Of a stretch of 64,000 bases of DNA, positions 27,367 through 37,397 are shown in pieces (position 1 is the first letter of the stretch; each line of letters starts with the position of its first letter). Source of the stretch: Candidatus Woesearchaeota archaeon (GTDB lineage: Archaea > Nanobdellota > Nanobdellia > Woesearchaeales > WJIZ01); contig WJIZ01000041.1 in NCBI GenBank assembly GCA_014729995.1, positions 10,584 through 74,583 of the forward strand, in the 5' to 3' direction. Position numbers and translations under genes: made by a program. The notes under the pieces are model-generated. The model ran no database searches and was not told where the DNA came from. It saw only the letters and a list, made by a program, of their open reading frames with translations.

Positions 27367-27489
27367 GCGCCAGTTGTCCAGTGGTTAAGATACGGCCTTG
27401 CCACGCGCTAAGATTTCCTGCGGAAATCCGCTGGCTTTGCGCTAGCGCGCAAAGAGGCTGTGACCCGAGTTCGAATCTCGGCTGGCGCA
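27367..27489 (+). tRNA. tRNA-Gly(GCC) with a ~51-nt structured intron after position 37
   Basis: GCGCCAG/CTGGCGC acceptor. Anticodon stem CGGCC/GGCTG, loop TTGCCA + intron. The intron holds nested palindromes (CGCGCTAG..CTAGCGCG and GATTTCC..GGAAATC). T-arm CCGAG-TTCGAAT-CTCGG. Confidence 0.65.
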
Positions 27490-27540: not shown

Positions 27541-27660
27541 GGCCCCATAGCTCAGTCTGGTTAGAGCGCCGGTCTTATATGGCCACGTTCTAAGCATCTG
27601 GCTCGAAGAGAGCCGGAGGTCCGGAGTTCAAAATCATCGATGAAAGTCTCCGTGGGGCCA
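27541..27660 (+). tRNA. tRNA with two introns (anticodon-loop ~31 nt and T-loop ~14 nt). Anticodon reads UAU (Ile) if the first intron is canonical, so identity is uncertain.
   Basis: GGCCCCA/TGGGGCC acceptor. D-arm GCTC-AGTCTGGTTA-GAGC. Anticodon stem CCGGT/GCCGG. T-stem CGGAG/CTCCG enclosing a 21-nt loop TTCAAA[..]T. Confidence 0.6.
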
Positions 27661-27905: not shown

Positions 27906-27980
27906 GCTCCCATGGTGTAGTCCGGCCAATCATTCCGGCTTTTCGAGCCGAAGACGTGGGTTCAAATCCCGCTGGGAGCA
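27906..27980 (+). tRNA. tRNA-Glu(UUC), intron-less
   Basis: GCTCCCA/TGGGAGC acceptor. D-arm TGGTGTAGTCCGGCCAATCAT typical of archaeal Glu/Gln. Anticodon loop TTTTCGA. T-arm GTGGG-TTCAAAT-CCCGC. Confidence 0.65.
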
Positions 27981-29712: not shown

Positions 29713-29814
29713 CATGAAAAGAAGTTCAAGGCGCTGGAAAAAGAAGCGCCAGATGCGCTGGAAATGGCAGCGTAAAAGGATGAAAAAGGAAAAAAGAAAG
29801 AGAGCTAAGAAGTA
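29713..29814 (+). CDS. rpl41e: 50S ribosomal protein L41e (33 aa, extremely basic)
   Basis: MKRSSRRWKKKRQMRWKWQRKRMKKEKRKRAKK resembles archaeal/eukaryal L41e (MRAKWKKKRMRRLKRKRRK..). Not in the ORF track. Confidence 0.5.
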
Positions 29815-29862
29815 AAATTCTGAATTCTAATTTTTTCAATTCATTTAAAACTCAAGTAAATA

Positions 29863-31902
29863 TCAATTAGGATTATCGCTGTAATCTACCCCTCTCAGTT
29901 TTTGACTTGCAGATACAAAATCACTAAGCCTGTAATGATTGCCTTTAGATGTTGCAATCTCGATATCTCGCTGTGAAGCGTCATTAATAATATTTCTAAC
30001 CTCATCTAAAGTCATTCCTGAAGACAAGTTGGCTATATCTTCAATACTATAAAACTCCATTCCCATATAGAGAAATACACTGTTAGGTTCTGCATTTCTC
30101 TTTCTCCCATCAAATTCTTCTGATTTCAAAGCCTTTGCAATCTCCCCTAAAAATGCACGCTCTACAAAATAACATGGAGAGTCTTTTTTAGACATATTGA
30201 TTATAAATGGTTTAAGTGTATTTTCTGTGCTGTTTTGACTGAATATTTCGTGGTACTTCTCAATATAGTTTGCTATGGGTTCAAATCCCTCATAAGAATT
30301 AAATAGGTCATATAACGGCACCATACCGATGGCAGCATCTTGCAGGCTAGTTATTTCGCTGCCTGTTACAACATTGCAGTCTTCAGGCACATTCACTCCC
30401 TCATTGTTCATAATATACCTAGCCCCGCCAAGACTGTAAGCGCAATGCGCGGCAAATTCAGCGGCAGTATAAACCTTCTGCGGATGAAGAGGCTTGCTTC
30501 TGCTTTCTCTCTCTAGTCGCTCCGCTGCCAATTTTTCTAATATTTTGTTCCTCTCTAAAAAGAAATTACCTATTTCGCTTCCTCTTGTTGTTGAGGTATC
30601 TGCTAAATGAAGCGCCACAGCCTCTTCAACAGCCAACTGGGTTCTATTGCAATAATCTTGGGGTTTTGTGCTTGATGTAACATTAAGCATTGGGTTTCTT
30701 TCATACAATACTATCTTTCTATCTTTGGGCAAATATAATGCAGGAGTAGAGCTTTCATTAACACCATCTATACTGATATTAACATCCCTTGAAATAGCTC
30801 CAGTGTCTAAAGCAGCAAGTTCCGAAACTATTTTTCTAGCAGCAGTAAGTCCCCTTTTTCTCATTTCTTTGATTGTGTTCACTTTTTTATTCTGCTCAAC
30901 GTAATTCTTTATACTATATAGATTGTGCTCTACCAGCTCTTGAAGCTCCTTATATCCTGGATGGTCATCGCTTAACCTGCCCCTATCAAGAAGAATCGCT
31001 TTATGCAATTCATCAGCATGCAACACAATCACTGTCTTGCTGGCTATTGCCATGCCGAATTTAGCTAAATCCGTAAATGCAAGCGGATCTCCGTATCTCC
31101 TGCCATGCACATATATGTTTATTCCTCTTTCTCCGTCAGGAACTTTCCGATCCATCACATATATCCATCCATTCACATTTCCCATATGATTCCCGATGCC
31201 TTCGATTTTAAACTTATTTTTCGAATCAAATCTTCTGGGCAAAACCTCTTCATTGTTAATATAAACTTTGAAGTCGGGCAAAAGCGGAAGTTCCATTCTT
31301 ATTGTCTGAGCAAGTTTTTTTAGATTAATCCAATCAGGATTCTGGAACCTTTTGTTGTGCATTTTAATAGTGGTGCCATGAGCCTCCGGATCACAATCAT
31401 GTTCTATAACTTTTAGTTCCACACCAACTTGAATATCCCCCTCGAATTTTTCCATAACCACTGTCTCAAGGCCGTCTCTTTTGGTTTTCATCTCATAGCT
31501 TTCAGCTAGTTTTTTCAAGACTAAGGTAGCTGTTCCATGGCCGCCTAACCTTCTTCTCCCTTTCGGGGAATATGGCTTGGATTTAATTATACTATCTCCA
31601 AGTCGGTAAAAATCTTGCAATCCATTATCTTTGCTCATGCCCACACCATCATCAGAATTAATAAAAAGACCTTTTTCAGGAATTGTTATAATATCAACTC
31701 TGGTTGCATCAGCATTGTAAGAATTCGAAATTTGTTCTATTACAGCACCTATATCATTGCTCTGAACTTTTTGGGCTGTACTTTCCGCCAGGTCCCTACC
31801 ATAATACCTTTTTATCCCCCCAACTGCTCTTTGACTTGGCGTATTTTTAGAATTAGCTCCTTTTTGTTTTCTCTCACCCTCCTTCATCTTAAATACTTTC
31901 AA
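29863..31902 (-). CDS. orphan GHKL-superfamily ATPase with MutL/MORC-like N-terminal domain (679 aa), function unknown
   Basis: Bergerat-fold motifs: N-box IEQISNSYNADATRVDI (cf. MutL LVENSLDAGAT.I.I), G1 SDDGVGMS, G2 GGHGTATL, GTTIKMHNKRFQNP. The C-terminal ~380 aa have no recognisable domain and lack MutL endonuclease motifs. Confidence 0.6.
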   Translation of the reverse strand: MKVFKMKEGERKQKGANSKNTPSQRAVGGIKRYYGRDLAESTAQKVQSNDIGAVIEQISNSYNADATRVDIITIPEKGLFINSDDGVGMSKDNGLQDFYRLGDSIIKSKPYSPKGRRRLGGHGTATLVLKKLAESYEMKTKRDGLETVVMEKFEGDIQVGVELKVIEHDCDPEAHGTTIKMHNKRFQNPDWINLKKLAQTIRMELPLLPDFKVYINNEEVLPRRFDSKNKFKIEGIGNHMGNVNGWIYVMDRKVPDGERGINIYVHGRRYGDPLAFTDLAKFGMAIASKTVIVLHADELHKAILLDRGRLSDDHPGYKELQELVEHNLYSIKNYVEQNKKVNTIKEMRKRGLTAARKIVSELAALDTGAISRDVNISIDGVNESSTPALYLPKDRKIVLYERNPMLNVTSSTKPQDYCNRTQLAVEEAVALHLADTSTTRGSEIGNFFLERNKILEKLAAERLERESRSKPLHPQKVYTAAEFAAHCAYSLGGARYIMNNEGVNVPEDCNVVTGSEITSLQDAAIGMVPLYDLFNSYEGFEPIANYIEKYHEIFSQNSTENTLKPFIINMSKKDSPCYFVERAFLGEIAKALKSEEFDGRKRNAEPNSVFLYMGMEFYSIEDIANLSSGMTLDEVRNIINDASQRDIEIATSKGNHYRLSDFVSASQKLRGVDYSDNPN

Positions 31903-32126
31903 ATTAGCTCTTAATTTTTAAATATATATCCATTTGAAAATAAGGTTCGGAATATATATAAAATATAATTCATATAAGATTTATATTAAACTAAGTTTTT
32001 TCTTTGTAAATCTAATTCTAAACCCTAACACAAAATATTTAAACAATGAAATCTACATATTCATTAAAGGAAATAAAATCGCCTGTTTTTTATTATTTTT
32101 TTCTATATATTTCAGAAGCAAAAGCT

Positions 32127-32136: not shown

Positions 32137-32287
32137 AATAAATTTCCAAAAATGCTATCGCCCCCAATTTTGTTTTAGATATACCAATTCTAAAAAACAC
32201 AAACAAATAGGCGATTTAATGCGTACTTGATACAGCTATCAAGTACAGGAAGGAAACAATCCCGACAATTTTAATTGCGACTATTAA

Positions 32288-33795
<1,508 letters not shown>

Positions 33796-34004
33796 TTATT
33801 TTCATAAGCATCATAGGAGATACCCATGGGCTTGAGCGAACTTCGAGCTTTGCTCGAGGGCTTGTAAGCTTTGCTTACAAAAGCAAAACTCATATGGGTT
33901 GATAAGGGCGAAGCCCTTATCGCAGGATCACATCCTTTCCTTTTTAATGCAAAAGGAATTGTTTCCTTCATTTTTCATATTTGATGAGCATTTCGGCCTT
34001 TCAA

Positions 34005-34102
34005 GGGCCCGTAGCTCAATGGTATTTCAAGTTATGCTTGAAACATGAAAGAGCGTCGCCCTTGCAAGGCGGAGGTTTCGGGTTCAAATCCCGACGGGTC
34101 CA
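34005..34102 (+). tRNA. tRNA-Ala(UGC) in the 16S-23S spacer, with a ~26-nt insert in the D-loop
   Basis: GGGCCCG/CGGGTCC acceptor. D-stem GCTC..GAGC around a 33-nt loop. Anticodon arm TCGCC-CTTGCAA-GGCGG. T-arm TCGGG-TTCAAAT-CCCGA. Confidence 0.7.
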
Positions 34103-34279
34103 TATGCCTATGCAACATTTTACAAAATGTTGCATATTTGCTTCAGCCCAAATTGGCATATATCATATTCATTTTATCATAAATCATCGTCAATGCATAT
34201 TGGCGATGGTTCGGACGAGACGCCTTCTTTCCTGGGAGGTAGAATATCTATTCATGTTGATGAGGCCATGCATTAAAGT

Positions 34280-37230
<2,951 letters not shown>

Positions 37231-37397
37231 TAACTTAAATGCATGGCCTTTTCTTTTTTATTCTTTGGGTTAATAAGATATTTTAGATTGTGGTTATAGC
37301 TTCAGCTCTATTCTGTCAAACATGCTTTCGCAGCAGGTTAAGTAACCTGGTATTTCATTTCCAAAACCCTTAAAAACGATTCCATTTTCTTTTTTTT

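What the first reader, a model, noticed from the sequence alone, without database searches (positions are those of the whole stretch)
29863..31902. Orphan 679-aa MutL/MORC-like GHKL ATPase with an uncharacterised C-terminal half, directly upstream of the rRNA operon
The N-terminus has the complete Bergerat ATP-binding signature and resembles the MutL ATPase most closely (IEQISNSYNADATRVDI / SDDGVGMS / GGHGTA / GTTIKMHN). There is no MutS, and no MutL C-terminal endonuclease or dimerisation motifs. Single GHKL ATPases of this type are recurrent components of prokaryotic defence and DNA-gating systems. Here it stands alone between a tRNA and small-gene island and the rRNA promoter, a typical hotspot for accessory DNA.
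Basis: partly seen in the sequence, partly recalled or inferred. Interest (0 to 1): 0.6.

Follow-up and report, generated by a model that had tools for sequence, protein, structure and literature searches.

The report
Solo MORC-like DNA-clamp ATPase, DPANN archaeon
The gene is real and encodes an ATP-driven, probably DNA-binding clamp protein related to MORC, Hsp90 and MutL; it belongs to an undescribed family of tiny DPANN archaea that usually sits next to a bacterial-type sigma factor gene, but this copy has no such partner.

Summary
An intact open frame on the minus strand, 29863-31902, encodes 679 aa, or more likely 674 aa from the ATG at 31887. It carries all Bergerat ATP-binding motifs and is transcribed divergently from the 16S-tRNA-23S operon. 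The genome (98% complete) shows no MutS or MutL C-terminal domain.

It is not an orphan. About 100 protein clusters share it, and more than 50 share the full length. In the collections searched, all full-length members are in DPANN (Woesearchaeota-type) archaea.

The predicted structure (pLDDT 89-94) has four parts:
- a GHKL ATPase plus S5 transducer, closest to MORC3 and MORC2 (Z 21);
- a long helix;
- a Wss1/SprT-like zincin fold without HExxH;
- three small helical modules, at least two of them excisionase-type winged helices.

A dimer model closes at both the ATPase and the dead-protease domain (0.54 against 0.01 for controls).

In 8-9 of 17 independent relatives' loci a sigma-70-like gene follows directly. 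This parallels MzaB and MzaA of the Mza anti-phage system. The window's genome has no sigma-like gene, and its copy lies in a well-supported partnerless clade.

The gene is accessory: about 3% of genomes in the phylum carry it, the congener lacks it, the slot is variable and GC3 is low. I read it as an ATP-gated DNA clamp for silencing or gene control. Defence remains possible.

This scan found the same family earlier in other genomes.

The parts
29863..31902 (-). Whole open frame, 679 aa from TTG 31902. The likely true start is ATG 31887 (674 aa). The stop codon is at 29863-29865.
   Evidence: the database copy P0002 is 674 aa and 100% identical
31243..31830 (-). GHKL (Bergerat) ATP-binding domain, residues about 25-220. 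It carries motif I E56/N60, motif II D84-G86-G88, motif III G120-G123 and motif IV G176-T177. The N-terminal strap, residues 24-39, lies in the predicted dimer interface.
   Evidence: Pfam HATPase_c_3. These residues are invariant or more than 90% conserved in 51 sequences. Fold match; interface.
30967..31242 (-). S5-fold transducer domain, residues about 221-312, with the nearly invariant N-G-R-R-x-G-D-P turn (R268, G271). R268 is the candidate gamma-phosphate sensor (inferred).
   Evidence: VIA-align covers residues 33-340 against MORC3 (Z 21.6), MORC2 (20.5), SMCHD1 (18.6), GRP94 (18.2) and MutL (16.8). Conservation.
30811..30960 (-). A single 50-residue helix (315-364) that links the ATPase module to the C-terminal half.
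   Evidence: AF2 models, pLDDT 85-97
30502..30810 (-). Zincin-like alpha/beta domain (residues about 365-467) without metal ligands. It forms the second predicted dimer interface (residues 385-386 and 403-466).
   Evidence: Wss1 Z 7.8, YbeY 7.6, selecase 6.7, SPRTN 6.7, HtpG C-terminal domain 6.3. No HExxH in this region in any of the 51 members. Interface.
30295..30474 (-). First winged-helix module (residues 477-536), excisionase/MerR-like by my reading of the sequence pattern. It holds the only invariant residues of the C-terminal half, Y478 and G514.
   Evidence: secondary structure; invariants; weak Cox-regulator and excisionase PHROG hits in a few members
30124..30276 (-). Second small helical module (residues 543-593) with conserved P565 and, within the near clade, C577 and R582. 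Its fold is not assigned.
29896..30087 (-). C-terminal winged helix-turn-helix (residues 606-669).
   Evidence: VIA-align: ParB-type partition protein 3ez9 Z 5.9, TorI excisionase 4.9, small-terminase-like DNA-binding domains 4.8-5.2, pSK1 Par 4.5
31915..31929 (-). TATA-like A/T box in the shared divergent intergenic region, 28-42 nt upstream of ATG 31887. Candidate archaeal promoter (inferred).
   Evidence: read directly from the sequence; no experimental or statistical test was made

Best explanation
The gene encodes a homodimeric, ATP-gated clamp of the MORC/Hsp90/MutL type. Two GHKL+S5 ATPase heads close on ATP binding. A catalytically dead zincin-like domain holds the dimer together at the other end, taking the place of the Hsp90 or MutL C-terminal dimerisation domain. 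Excisionase-type winged-helix modules at the C-terminus bind DNA. The protein has no nuclease, methylase or helicase part. The most likely action is therefore non-destructive: ATP-dependent trapping, bridging or compaction of DNA that shuts down, or otherwise controls, transcription of the bound DNA, as eukaryotic MORCs do. It is an accessory, laterally moving gene of DPANN archaea. In about half of the relatives it is translationally coupled to a sigma-70-like DNA-binding partner, but this copy belongs to a clade that works without one. Shown: the gene, the motifs, the fold assignments, the family, its distribution and the gene contexts. Predicted only: the dimer. Inferred: DNA binding, the clamp cycle and the biological role (silencing or gene control about 45%, anti-virus or anti-plasmid defence about 25-30%).
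For: All ATP-binding motifs are intact and conserved over 51 sequences of 21-45% identity. The model is confident, at pLDDT 89.4 for the whole protein and 93.9 for the C-terminal half. Residues 33-340 match MORC3 and MORC2 at Z 21.6 and 20.5, ahead of MutL at 16.8. Residues 341-466 match many zincins, but no member has HExxH. The C-terminal winged helix matches partition, excisionase and terminase DNA-binding domains. The homodimer model of residues 21-470 scores 0.54 against a best control of 0.01; this mark was reached by 20 of 30 solved homodimers and 1 of 23 monomers. Its contacts lie both at the N-strap and ATP lid and at the zincin-like helices. No nuclease fold appears among the structural matches. 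The family shows purifying conservation along its whole length. A sigma-70-like gene lies directly downstream in 8-9 of 17 independent loci. The accessory status rests on four observations: the C-terminal module occurs in 12 of 401 genomes of the phylum and in full in 6; it is absent from the same-genus genome and 58 other relatives; the same eL41-16S slot holds an unrelated 366-aa gene in a family relative; and GC3 is 0.33 against a genome mean of 0.44, the 10th percentile.
Against: There is no experiment on any member. DNA binding is inferred from weak fold matches (Z 4.5-6, below the tool's own level for confidence). The zincin-like assignment is also weak (Z below 8), although it is consistent over many zincins and over two aligners. 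The dimer is a prediction, and GHKL dimers are well represented among solved structures, so the N-terminal interface may be recalled rather than inferred. This genome lacks the family's usual sigma-like partner, so the solo copy could be a decaying remnant, though its frame and motifs are intact. No transcription data could be obtained. The ATPase module's nearest annotated relatives are defence proteins, which favours the rival role.
Confidence: 0.55

Rival explanations
1. It is a minimal single-gene anti-virus or anti-plasmid defence protein. In this reading it is a stripped-down relative of the Mza (MzaA sigma + MzaB GHKL) or Tiamat systems that senses or blocks invading DNA.
For: Family members hit defence GHKL models: REase_II in 46 of 51, Tiamat TmtA in 24 of 51 (best 2.4e-8), MzaB in 16 of 51 and MADS mad1 in 15 of 51. 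The best NCBIfam hit for the window protein is the BbrUII/HgiDII restriction enzyme N-terminus. The GHKL + sigma-70 pairing of relatives mirrors MzaB + MzaA, and one partner's best hit is MzaA at 6.8e-49. Mza has been validated against phages (bioRxiv 10.1101/2022.06.16.496414). Tiamat also carries an inactive Wss1-like fold after its ATPase (bioRxiv 10.64898/2026.09.30.754977). The patchy distribution, variable slot and low GC3 fit this role. Long integrases and a type IIG restriction-modification gene lie near some copies.
Against: There is no effector: no nuclease, TIR, peptidase or helicase by Pfam or by fold. The window protein itself hits neither TmtA nor MzaB. No Z1 domain is found in the genome. 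Neighbours in the window and in most relatives' loci are housekeeping or unknown genes, not defence genes. All hits to defence models cover the ATPase head only.
Confidence: 0.27
2. It is an Hsp90-like protein chaperone or remodeller whose dead-protease domain holds protein clients. In relatives the client would be the sigma-like protein, giving an anti-sigma-like control.
For: Foldseek ranks TRAP1 and Hsp90 first for the whole model. The zincin-like region also matches the HtpG C-terminal domain at Z 6.3. Pseudo-proteases often bind clients, as discussed for Tiamat. Castelle et al. 2021 found no anti-sigma factor for the sigma-70 homologues of DPANN (PMC8204110). Small GHKL anti-sigma kinases exist, and SpoIIAB was matched at Z 6.5.
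Against: This genome has no sigma-like gene to act on. The C-terminus carries DNA-binding-type winged helices. The better-superposing matches are MORCs (rmsd 3.0-3.3 A), whereas Hsp90 full-length alignments have rmsd 12-22 A.
Confidence: 0.1
3. It is a divergent but ordinary MutL for mismatch repair, or a type II restriction enzyme of the BbrUII/HgiDII type.
For: The profile of the family hits MutL N-terminal domains at 1e-10. There are weak NCBIfam MutL hits and a BbrUII/HgiDII hit of 47.9 bits.
Against: MutS_V and MutL_C are absent from the 98%-complete genome, with working controls. There is no MutL C-terminal or nuclease fold in a confident model. The BbrUII score is far below its cut-off of 550 and covers residues 52-221 only. 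No methyltransferase is adjacent. The gene is absent from nearly all relatives, unlike a repair gene.
Confidence: 0.03

Closest known systems
Eukaryotic MORC2/MORC3 and SMCHD1, and the prokaryotic MORC/paraMORC families (Iyer, Abhiman & Aravind 2008, PMC2292703)
   Same: A GHKL + S5 ATPase module (best structural matches, Z 18.6-21.6), a following long helix, a predicted ATP-head dimer, and sporadic, laterally mobile distribution in prokaryotes.
   Different: There are no CW, chromo or SMC-hinge domains. The described paraMORCs sit in restriction-modification operons with helicases and nucleases or carry nuclease or TIR tails. This family has a dead zincin domain plus winged helices, and its recurrent partner is a sigma-70-like gene. 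Pfam's Morc6_S5 model hit 1 of 51 members weakly.
Tiamat (TmtA) anti-phage GHL ATPase (bioRxiv 10.64898/2026.09.30.754977)
   Same: An Hsp90-like ATPase + transducer followed by an inactive, Wss1-like metalloprotease fold that lacks HExxH. It is a single-gene system, and 'Tiamat-like' proteins swap the C-terminal effector.
   Different: There are no TPR-like repeats, no Fold B, no DUF3684 and no PD-(D/E)xK nuclease. The window protein is shorter and ends in winged helices. The PADLOC TmtA models miss the window protein and hit 24 of 51 relatives only weakly through the ATPase head.
MzaA-MzaB core of the mzaABCDE anti-phage system
   Same: In relatives, a GHKL ATPase gene lies adjacent to a sigma-70-family gene. 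MzaA is described as a sigma factor (PMC9523054).
   Different: The gene order is reversed (ATPase first). No Z1, nuclease (MzaD) or AIPR genes are present. The scores are far below the curated cut-offs. The window genome has no sigma-like gene at all.
Sigma-70 homologues of DPANN archaea (Castelle et al. 2021, PMC8204110)
   Same: The partners of this family in relatives are such sigma-70 homologues. I found sigma-like genes in 138 of 401 genomes of the phylum.
   Different: Only a subfamily with an extra N-terminal domain of about 130 aa is coupled to the ATPase. That paper reports no partner or regulator. The window copy is uncoupled.
MutL
   Same: The GHKL + S5 N-terminal module (Z 15.8-16.8).
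   Different: There is no MutL C-terminal dimerisation or endonuclease domain, and no MutS in the genome.

Membership tests
MutL (mismatch repair) | N-terminal GHKL ATPase with S5 transducer | tested here: met
   Pfam HATPase_c_3; MutL N-terminal domains Z 15.8-16.8 over residues 42-339
MutL (mismatch repair) | MutL C-terminal dimerisation/endonuclease domain (Pfam MutL_C) | tested here: not met
   No Pfam hit in the protein or in 51 relatives. No MutL_C anywhere in the genome, with positive controls. No such fold among the matches.
MutL (mismatch repair) | Cognate MutS in the genome | tested here: not met
   The MutS_V search of the 97.9%-complete genome was empty, while controls rang in 11 of 14 genomes.
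MORC / paraMORC (Iyer et al. 2008) | GHKL + S5 module with intact ATP-binding motifs | tested here: met
MORC / paraMORC (Iyer et al. 2008) | MORC-specific S5 sequence signature | tested here: inconclusive
   Pfam Morc6_S5 hit 1 of 51 members at E 0.0049 and did not hit the window protein. The paper's own motif was not compared.
MORC / paraMORC (Iyer et al. 2008) | Operonic link to restriction-modification genes, SF2 helicases or nucleases | tested here: not met
   None of these lie beside the window gene or beside 17 independent relatives, apart from one type IIG restriction-modification gene 6 kb away in L200.
Tiamat (TmtA) | Hsp90-like ATPase + transducer | tested here: met
Tiamat (TmtA) | Inactive Wss1-like metalloprotease fold after the ATPase | tested here: met
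   Wss1 Z 7.8 and 7.1; no HExxH in this region in any of the 51 members. The Z-score is weak.
Tiamat (TmtA) | DUF3684 core (TPR-like repeats, Fold B) and C-terminal PD-(D/E)xK nuclease | tested here: not met
   No Pfam hit and no nuclease or TPR fold match
Tiamat (TmtA) | Match to PADLOC TmtA models | tested here: not met
   The window protein has no hit at E<=1. Relatives: 24 of 51 have weak hits.
Mza system | Sigma-70-family MzaA gene next to the GHKL MzaB gene | tested here: not met
   The window has none in the locus or in the genome. The feature is met in 8-9 of 17 relatives' loci.
Mza system | Z1 (MzaC), nuclease (MzaD) and AIPR (MzaE) genes | tested here: inconclusive
   Z1 was not found in the genome. 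The AIPR search was uninformative because no control rang. None is seen in relatives' loci.
BbrUII/HgiDII type II restriction enzymes | Full-length match to NF050001 above its cut-off, with a nuclease half and a cognate methylase | tested here: not met
   47.9 bits against a cut-off of 550, over residues 52-221 only. No methylase is adjacent.

The most novel reading that the evidence does not exclude
This family is an archaeal counterpart of MORC-type silencing: an ATP-gated DNA clamp that shuts down bound DNA without cutting it. It would also be the missing functional partner of the unexplained bacterial-type sigma-70 proteins of DPANN archaea. In that reading, partnerless copies such as this one show that the clamp can work alone through its own winged-helix modules.
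Probability: 0.2. Interest if true: 0.75.

Novelty: new variant of a known kind. Interest (0 to 1): 0.5.

Why it matters
GHKL clamps of the MORC type silence transposons and viruses in plants and animals. Their prokaryotic relatives are known mostly as parts of restriction or defence systems that carry nucleases. This family has a full ATPase clamp and DNA-binding modules but no destructive part. It is confined, as far as seen, to the tiny DPANN archaea. In half of its members it is coupled to a bacterial-type sigma factor, whose role in cells without a bacterial RNA polymerase is an open question (PMC8204110). A partnerless copy such as this one is the simplest form to express and assay. It also shows that the ATPase is kept under selection without the sigma-like protein.

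Tried and rejected
- Mismatch-repair MutL is rejected.
- A restriction enzyme is rejected: only the ATPase head matches, and there is no nuclease and no methylase.
- An active metalloprotease is rejected: no HExxH in the zincin-like region of any of the 51 members.
- A topoisomerase-like catalytic tyrosine was considered for the invariant Y478. I rejected it because there is no Toprim or other acidic catalytic domain, and the residue sits at the hydrophobic position that opens an excisionase-type helix-turn-helix. This is my reading of the pattern.
- An integrated element with att repeats was looked for. No flanking direct repeats were found. A 14-nt match to the tRNA-Glu T-arm lies inside the gene, not at its ends, and is probably chance.
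- Integrase adjacency as proof of mobility is weakened. The short 272-276 aa recombinases beside three relatives are 33-39% identical to this genome's own Xer-like recombinase. Longer integrases occur near three other copies.
- A second copy in the genome was suspected. The integrase-linked GHKL ORF on contig 28 is an ordinary gyrase B.
- Sequence search of solved structures with the C-terminal profile gave nothing significant.
- The ESM Atlas search of the C-terminal half gave no hit above chance level.
- Rfam found nothing in the flanking intergenic DNA.
- Viral contigs held only distant relatives of the ATPase head.
- No sequencing run was listed, so expression could not be checked.
- Profile comparison of the C-terminal half with the sigma-like partner showed no relation.
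Full report
**Observation.** The window holds an uninterrupted frame on the minus strand from 31902 (TTG) to 29863, 679 codons. Pfam finds HATPase_c_3 at residues 52-177 (E 1.4e-9, above its cut-off) and nothing else. The public protein collection holds the same protein from the ATG six codons in (674 aa). An A/T box at 31915-31929 sits 28-42 nt upstream of that ATG and too close to the TTG. I therefore take 31887 as the start; this is my reading of the sequence, and it is untested.

The 16S rRNA begins at 32287 on the other strand, followed by a tRNA and the 23S. The gene is therefore divergent from the rRNA operon rather than upstream of it in the same direction. On its 3' side, 47 bp away and convergent, lies a 33-codon gene for ribosomal protein eL41 (29714-29815). 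A SemiSWEET transporter and a GH15 glycosidase follow, and the tRNA genes lie beyond those.

**Not MutL, not a restriction enzyme.** The genome is 1.33 Mb in 45 contigs and 97.9% complete. It has no MutS domain V and no MutL C-terminal domain, while both searches rang in 11 of 14 control genomes. NCBIfam's best hit is the N-terminus of the BbrUII/HgiDII restriction enzymes, at 47.9 bits against a cut-off of 550 and over residues 52-221 only. PADLOC gives only two 'REase_II' models over the same stretch. No methyltransferase or nuclease gene is nearby.

**The family.**
- A word-indexed search found only three full-length relatives, at 39-45% identity.
- An exhaustive HMMER scan of 1.84 billion representatives found 413 clusters at E<1e-3 and 104 at E<1e-30. 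More than 50 of these align over nearly the whole length at 21-34% identity.
- Conservation runs to the C-terminus.
- In the species-level genome collection, every hit that covers the full length lies in DPANN-type archaeal MAGs. These are named Woesearchaeota, or carry a doubtful Methanosarcinales label on co-assembly bins. Bacterial and viral hits share only residues of about 40-340.
- In an even sample of 401 good genomes of the window's phylum, the C-terminal module occurs in 12, and in full in 6.
- The same-genus genome and 58 other relatives lack the gene.
- In a same-family genome the slot between eL41 and the 16S holds an unrelated 366-aa gene.
- GC3 of the gene is 0.33. Its neighbours have 0.46-0.51 and the genome mean is 0.44, which puts the gene at the 10th percentile of long ORFs.

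Together these mark an accessory, laterally moving gene. No att-like repeats flank it.

**Structure.** AlphaFold2 with the 51-sequence alignment gives pLDDT 89.4 for the whole protein and 93.9 for residues 310-679.
- *Residues 33-340.* An exhaustive structural comparison aligns this region to MORC3 (Z 21.6, rmsd 3.0 A), MORC2 (20.5), SMCHD1 (18.6), GRP94 (18.2) and MutL (16.8). This is a GHKL domain plus an S5 transducer. The motif residues E56, N60, D84, G86, G88, G120, G123 and T177 are invariant or nearly so, and so is R268 in the transducer.
- *Residues 315-364.* A single 50-residue helix follows the ATPase module.
- *Residues 341-466.* This region repeatedly matches small zincins: Wss1 7.8, YbeY 7.6, selecase 6.7 and SPRTN 6.7. 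It also matches the HtpG C-terminal domain at 6.3. These scores are below the tool's level for confidence. They agree with Foldseek's ranking (abylysin, jannalysin, IrrE/PprI) and with AlphaFold DB hits to ImmA/IrrE and SprT-like proteins. None of the 51 members has HExxH in this region, so the domain cannot be a metalloprotease.
- *The remainder.* Three small helical modules follow. The last (608-674) matches winged-helix DNA-binding domains of partition proteins, the TorI excisionase and small terminases (Z 4.5-5.9). The first carries the only invariant residues of the C-terminal half, Y478 and G514, in a pattern I read as an excisionase/MerR-type helix-turn-helix. A few members hit excisionase PHROGs.

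**Dimer.** Two copies of residues 21-470 were folded against controls: score 0.54, best control 0.01. This mark was reached by 20 of 30 solved homodimers and 1 of 23 monomers, and my own alignment was used, so the counts hold only roughly. Contacts fall at the N-terminal strap and ATP lid (24-39, 91-103, 147-167) and, separately, at the zincin-like helices (403-466). That is the two-gate geometry of Hsp90, MutL and topoisomerase VI-B, with the dead protease domain in the place of the constitutive dimerisation domain. The first interface resembles many solved complexes and may be recalled rather than inferred. The second has no solved counterpart that I know of.

**Context in relatives.** I examined 17 independent loci that carry full-length members.
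- In 8 of them (L098, L102, L106, L194, L195, L200, L201 and the contig of P0011), and probably a ninth (the contig of P0009), a gene of 340-430 aa starts at or inside the ATPase gene's stop. It carries sigma-70 regions 2 and 4 behind a conserved N-terminal domain of about 130 aa.
- NCBIfam reads these partners as FliA/WhiG- or RpoD-like, and one has MzaA as its best hit (6.8e-49). All are below the curated cut-offs.
- Sigma-like genes occur in 138 of 401 genomes of the phylum, but the N-terminally extended subfamily was seen in full only next to the ATPase.
- Castelle et al. reported sigma-70 homologues in Woesearchaeota and found no regulator for them (PMC8204110).
- The window genome has no sigma-like gene by Pfam model, by single protein or by profile.
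- In a maximum-likelihood tree the window protein groups with three other partnerless copies (support 100/100) inside an unresolved set that includes the coupled ones. The direction of change is not settled.
- Other neighbours are housekeeping or unknown genes.
- Short Xer-like recombinases abut three copies, but they resemble this genome's own recombinase. Longer integrases lie within 4 kb of three further copies.

**Comparison with known systems.** The module is that of the MORC/paraMORC radiation (PMC2292703). However, those families sit with helicases, methylases and nucleases or carry nuclease or TIR tails, and none of that is seen here. Tiamat, a single-gene anti-phage GHL ATPase, also has an inactive Wss1-like fold after its transducer, and variants swap its nuclease for other domains. 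The window protein lacks Tiamat's TPR-like core and nuclease and is missed by the TmtA models. Relatives hit TmtA, MzaB and MADS mad1 weakly through the ATPase head. The ATPase-sigma pairing of relatives parallels MzaB-MzaA of the validated mzaABCDE system, without Z1, nuclease or AIPR genes. The AIPR search was uninformative.

**Reading.** The gene, the motifs, the family, its distribution and the contexts are shown. The folds and the dimer are predicted. DNA binding and the role are inferred. The most economical mechanism is an ATP-gated dimeric clamp that binds DNA through its winged helices and, having no catalytic effector, acts by trapping or compacting DNA or by occluding transcription. 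Whether the target is foreign DNA (defence by silencing) or host genes (regulation) cannot be decided from the sequence. I put the non-destructive silencing or control reading at about 45% and classical defence at 25-30%. The remainder goes to a chaperone or anti-sigma-like role and to ordinary alternatives.

**Earlier notes of this scan.** After my own analysis I found that other agents had reported the ATPase-sigma pair, and one stand-alone copy, in other DPANN genomes. My results agree with theirs and were obtained independently on this window and on loci I fetched myself. No publication describing the family or the pairing turned up in six literature searches.

Noticed in passing
window 29714-29815 (+): A 33-codon, extremely basic ORF reads as ribosomal protein eL41. 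Its DNA is 82-86% identical in two family relatives, while neighbouring protein genes are 65-71% identical. It is too short for ordinary gene callers.
   Followed up: partly
window 27367-27489, 27541-27660 and 34005-34102 (+): Rfam calls tRNAs of 98-123 nt that ARAGORN misses. They are presumably intron-containing archaeal tRNAs, and one lies in the 16S-23S spacer.
   Followed up: no
window 32287-37240 (+): The rRNA operon is 16S-tRNA-23S, and Rfam called no 5S rRNA anywhere in the window.
   Followed up: no
L006 642-1742 (G002:C56): In a same-family genome, the slot between eL41 and the 16S holds an unrelated 366-aa gene with no significant Pfam family, in the same orientation as the ATPase gene here. 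The slot beside the rRNA promoter seems to collect accessory genes.
   Followed up: partly
L098, L102, L106, L194, L195, L200, L201: In relatives, the sigma-70-like gene that overlaps the ATPase gene's stop has a conserved N-terminal domain of about 130 aa with no family assignment. Full-length matches to that subfamily were seen only next to the ATPase, although sigma-like genes occur in 138 of 401 genomes of the phylum.
   Followed up: partly
L197 6691-9864 (G120:C7): One full-length family member is followed, with overlapping stop and start, by a 1057-aa protein with no Pfam or NCBIfam hit instead of the sigma-like gene. It may be an alternative partner.
   Followed up: no
L189, L190, L192 (G313, G210, G233): More distant, longer relatives (697-810 aa) that share only part of the C-terminal module also have sigma-like genes adjacent or within about 3 kb.
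   Followed up: no
L207 1752-5770 (G000:C28): The window's own genome carries a bacterial-type DNA gyrase B, 1.3 kb downstream of a Xer-like tyrosine recombinase with an AIR-synthase-like gene between them.
   Followed up: partly
L001 5487-9653: A 1388-aa PD-(D/E)xK helicase gene interrupted by an intein with a LAGLIDADG endonuclease, followed by a Fic gene, lies 1.6 kb from the closest relative of the window protein.
   Followed up: no
window 30276-30289 and 27957-27970: An exact 14-nt copy of the tRNA-Glu T-arm sequence lies inside the ATPase gene. I roughly estimate about 0.1 such matches by chance, and it lies inside the gene rather than at its ends, so it is probably chance.
   Followed up: no
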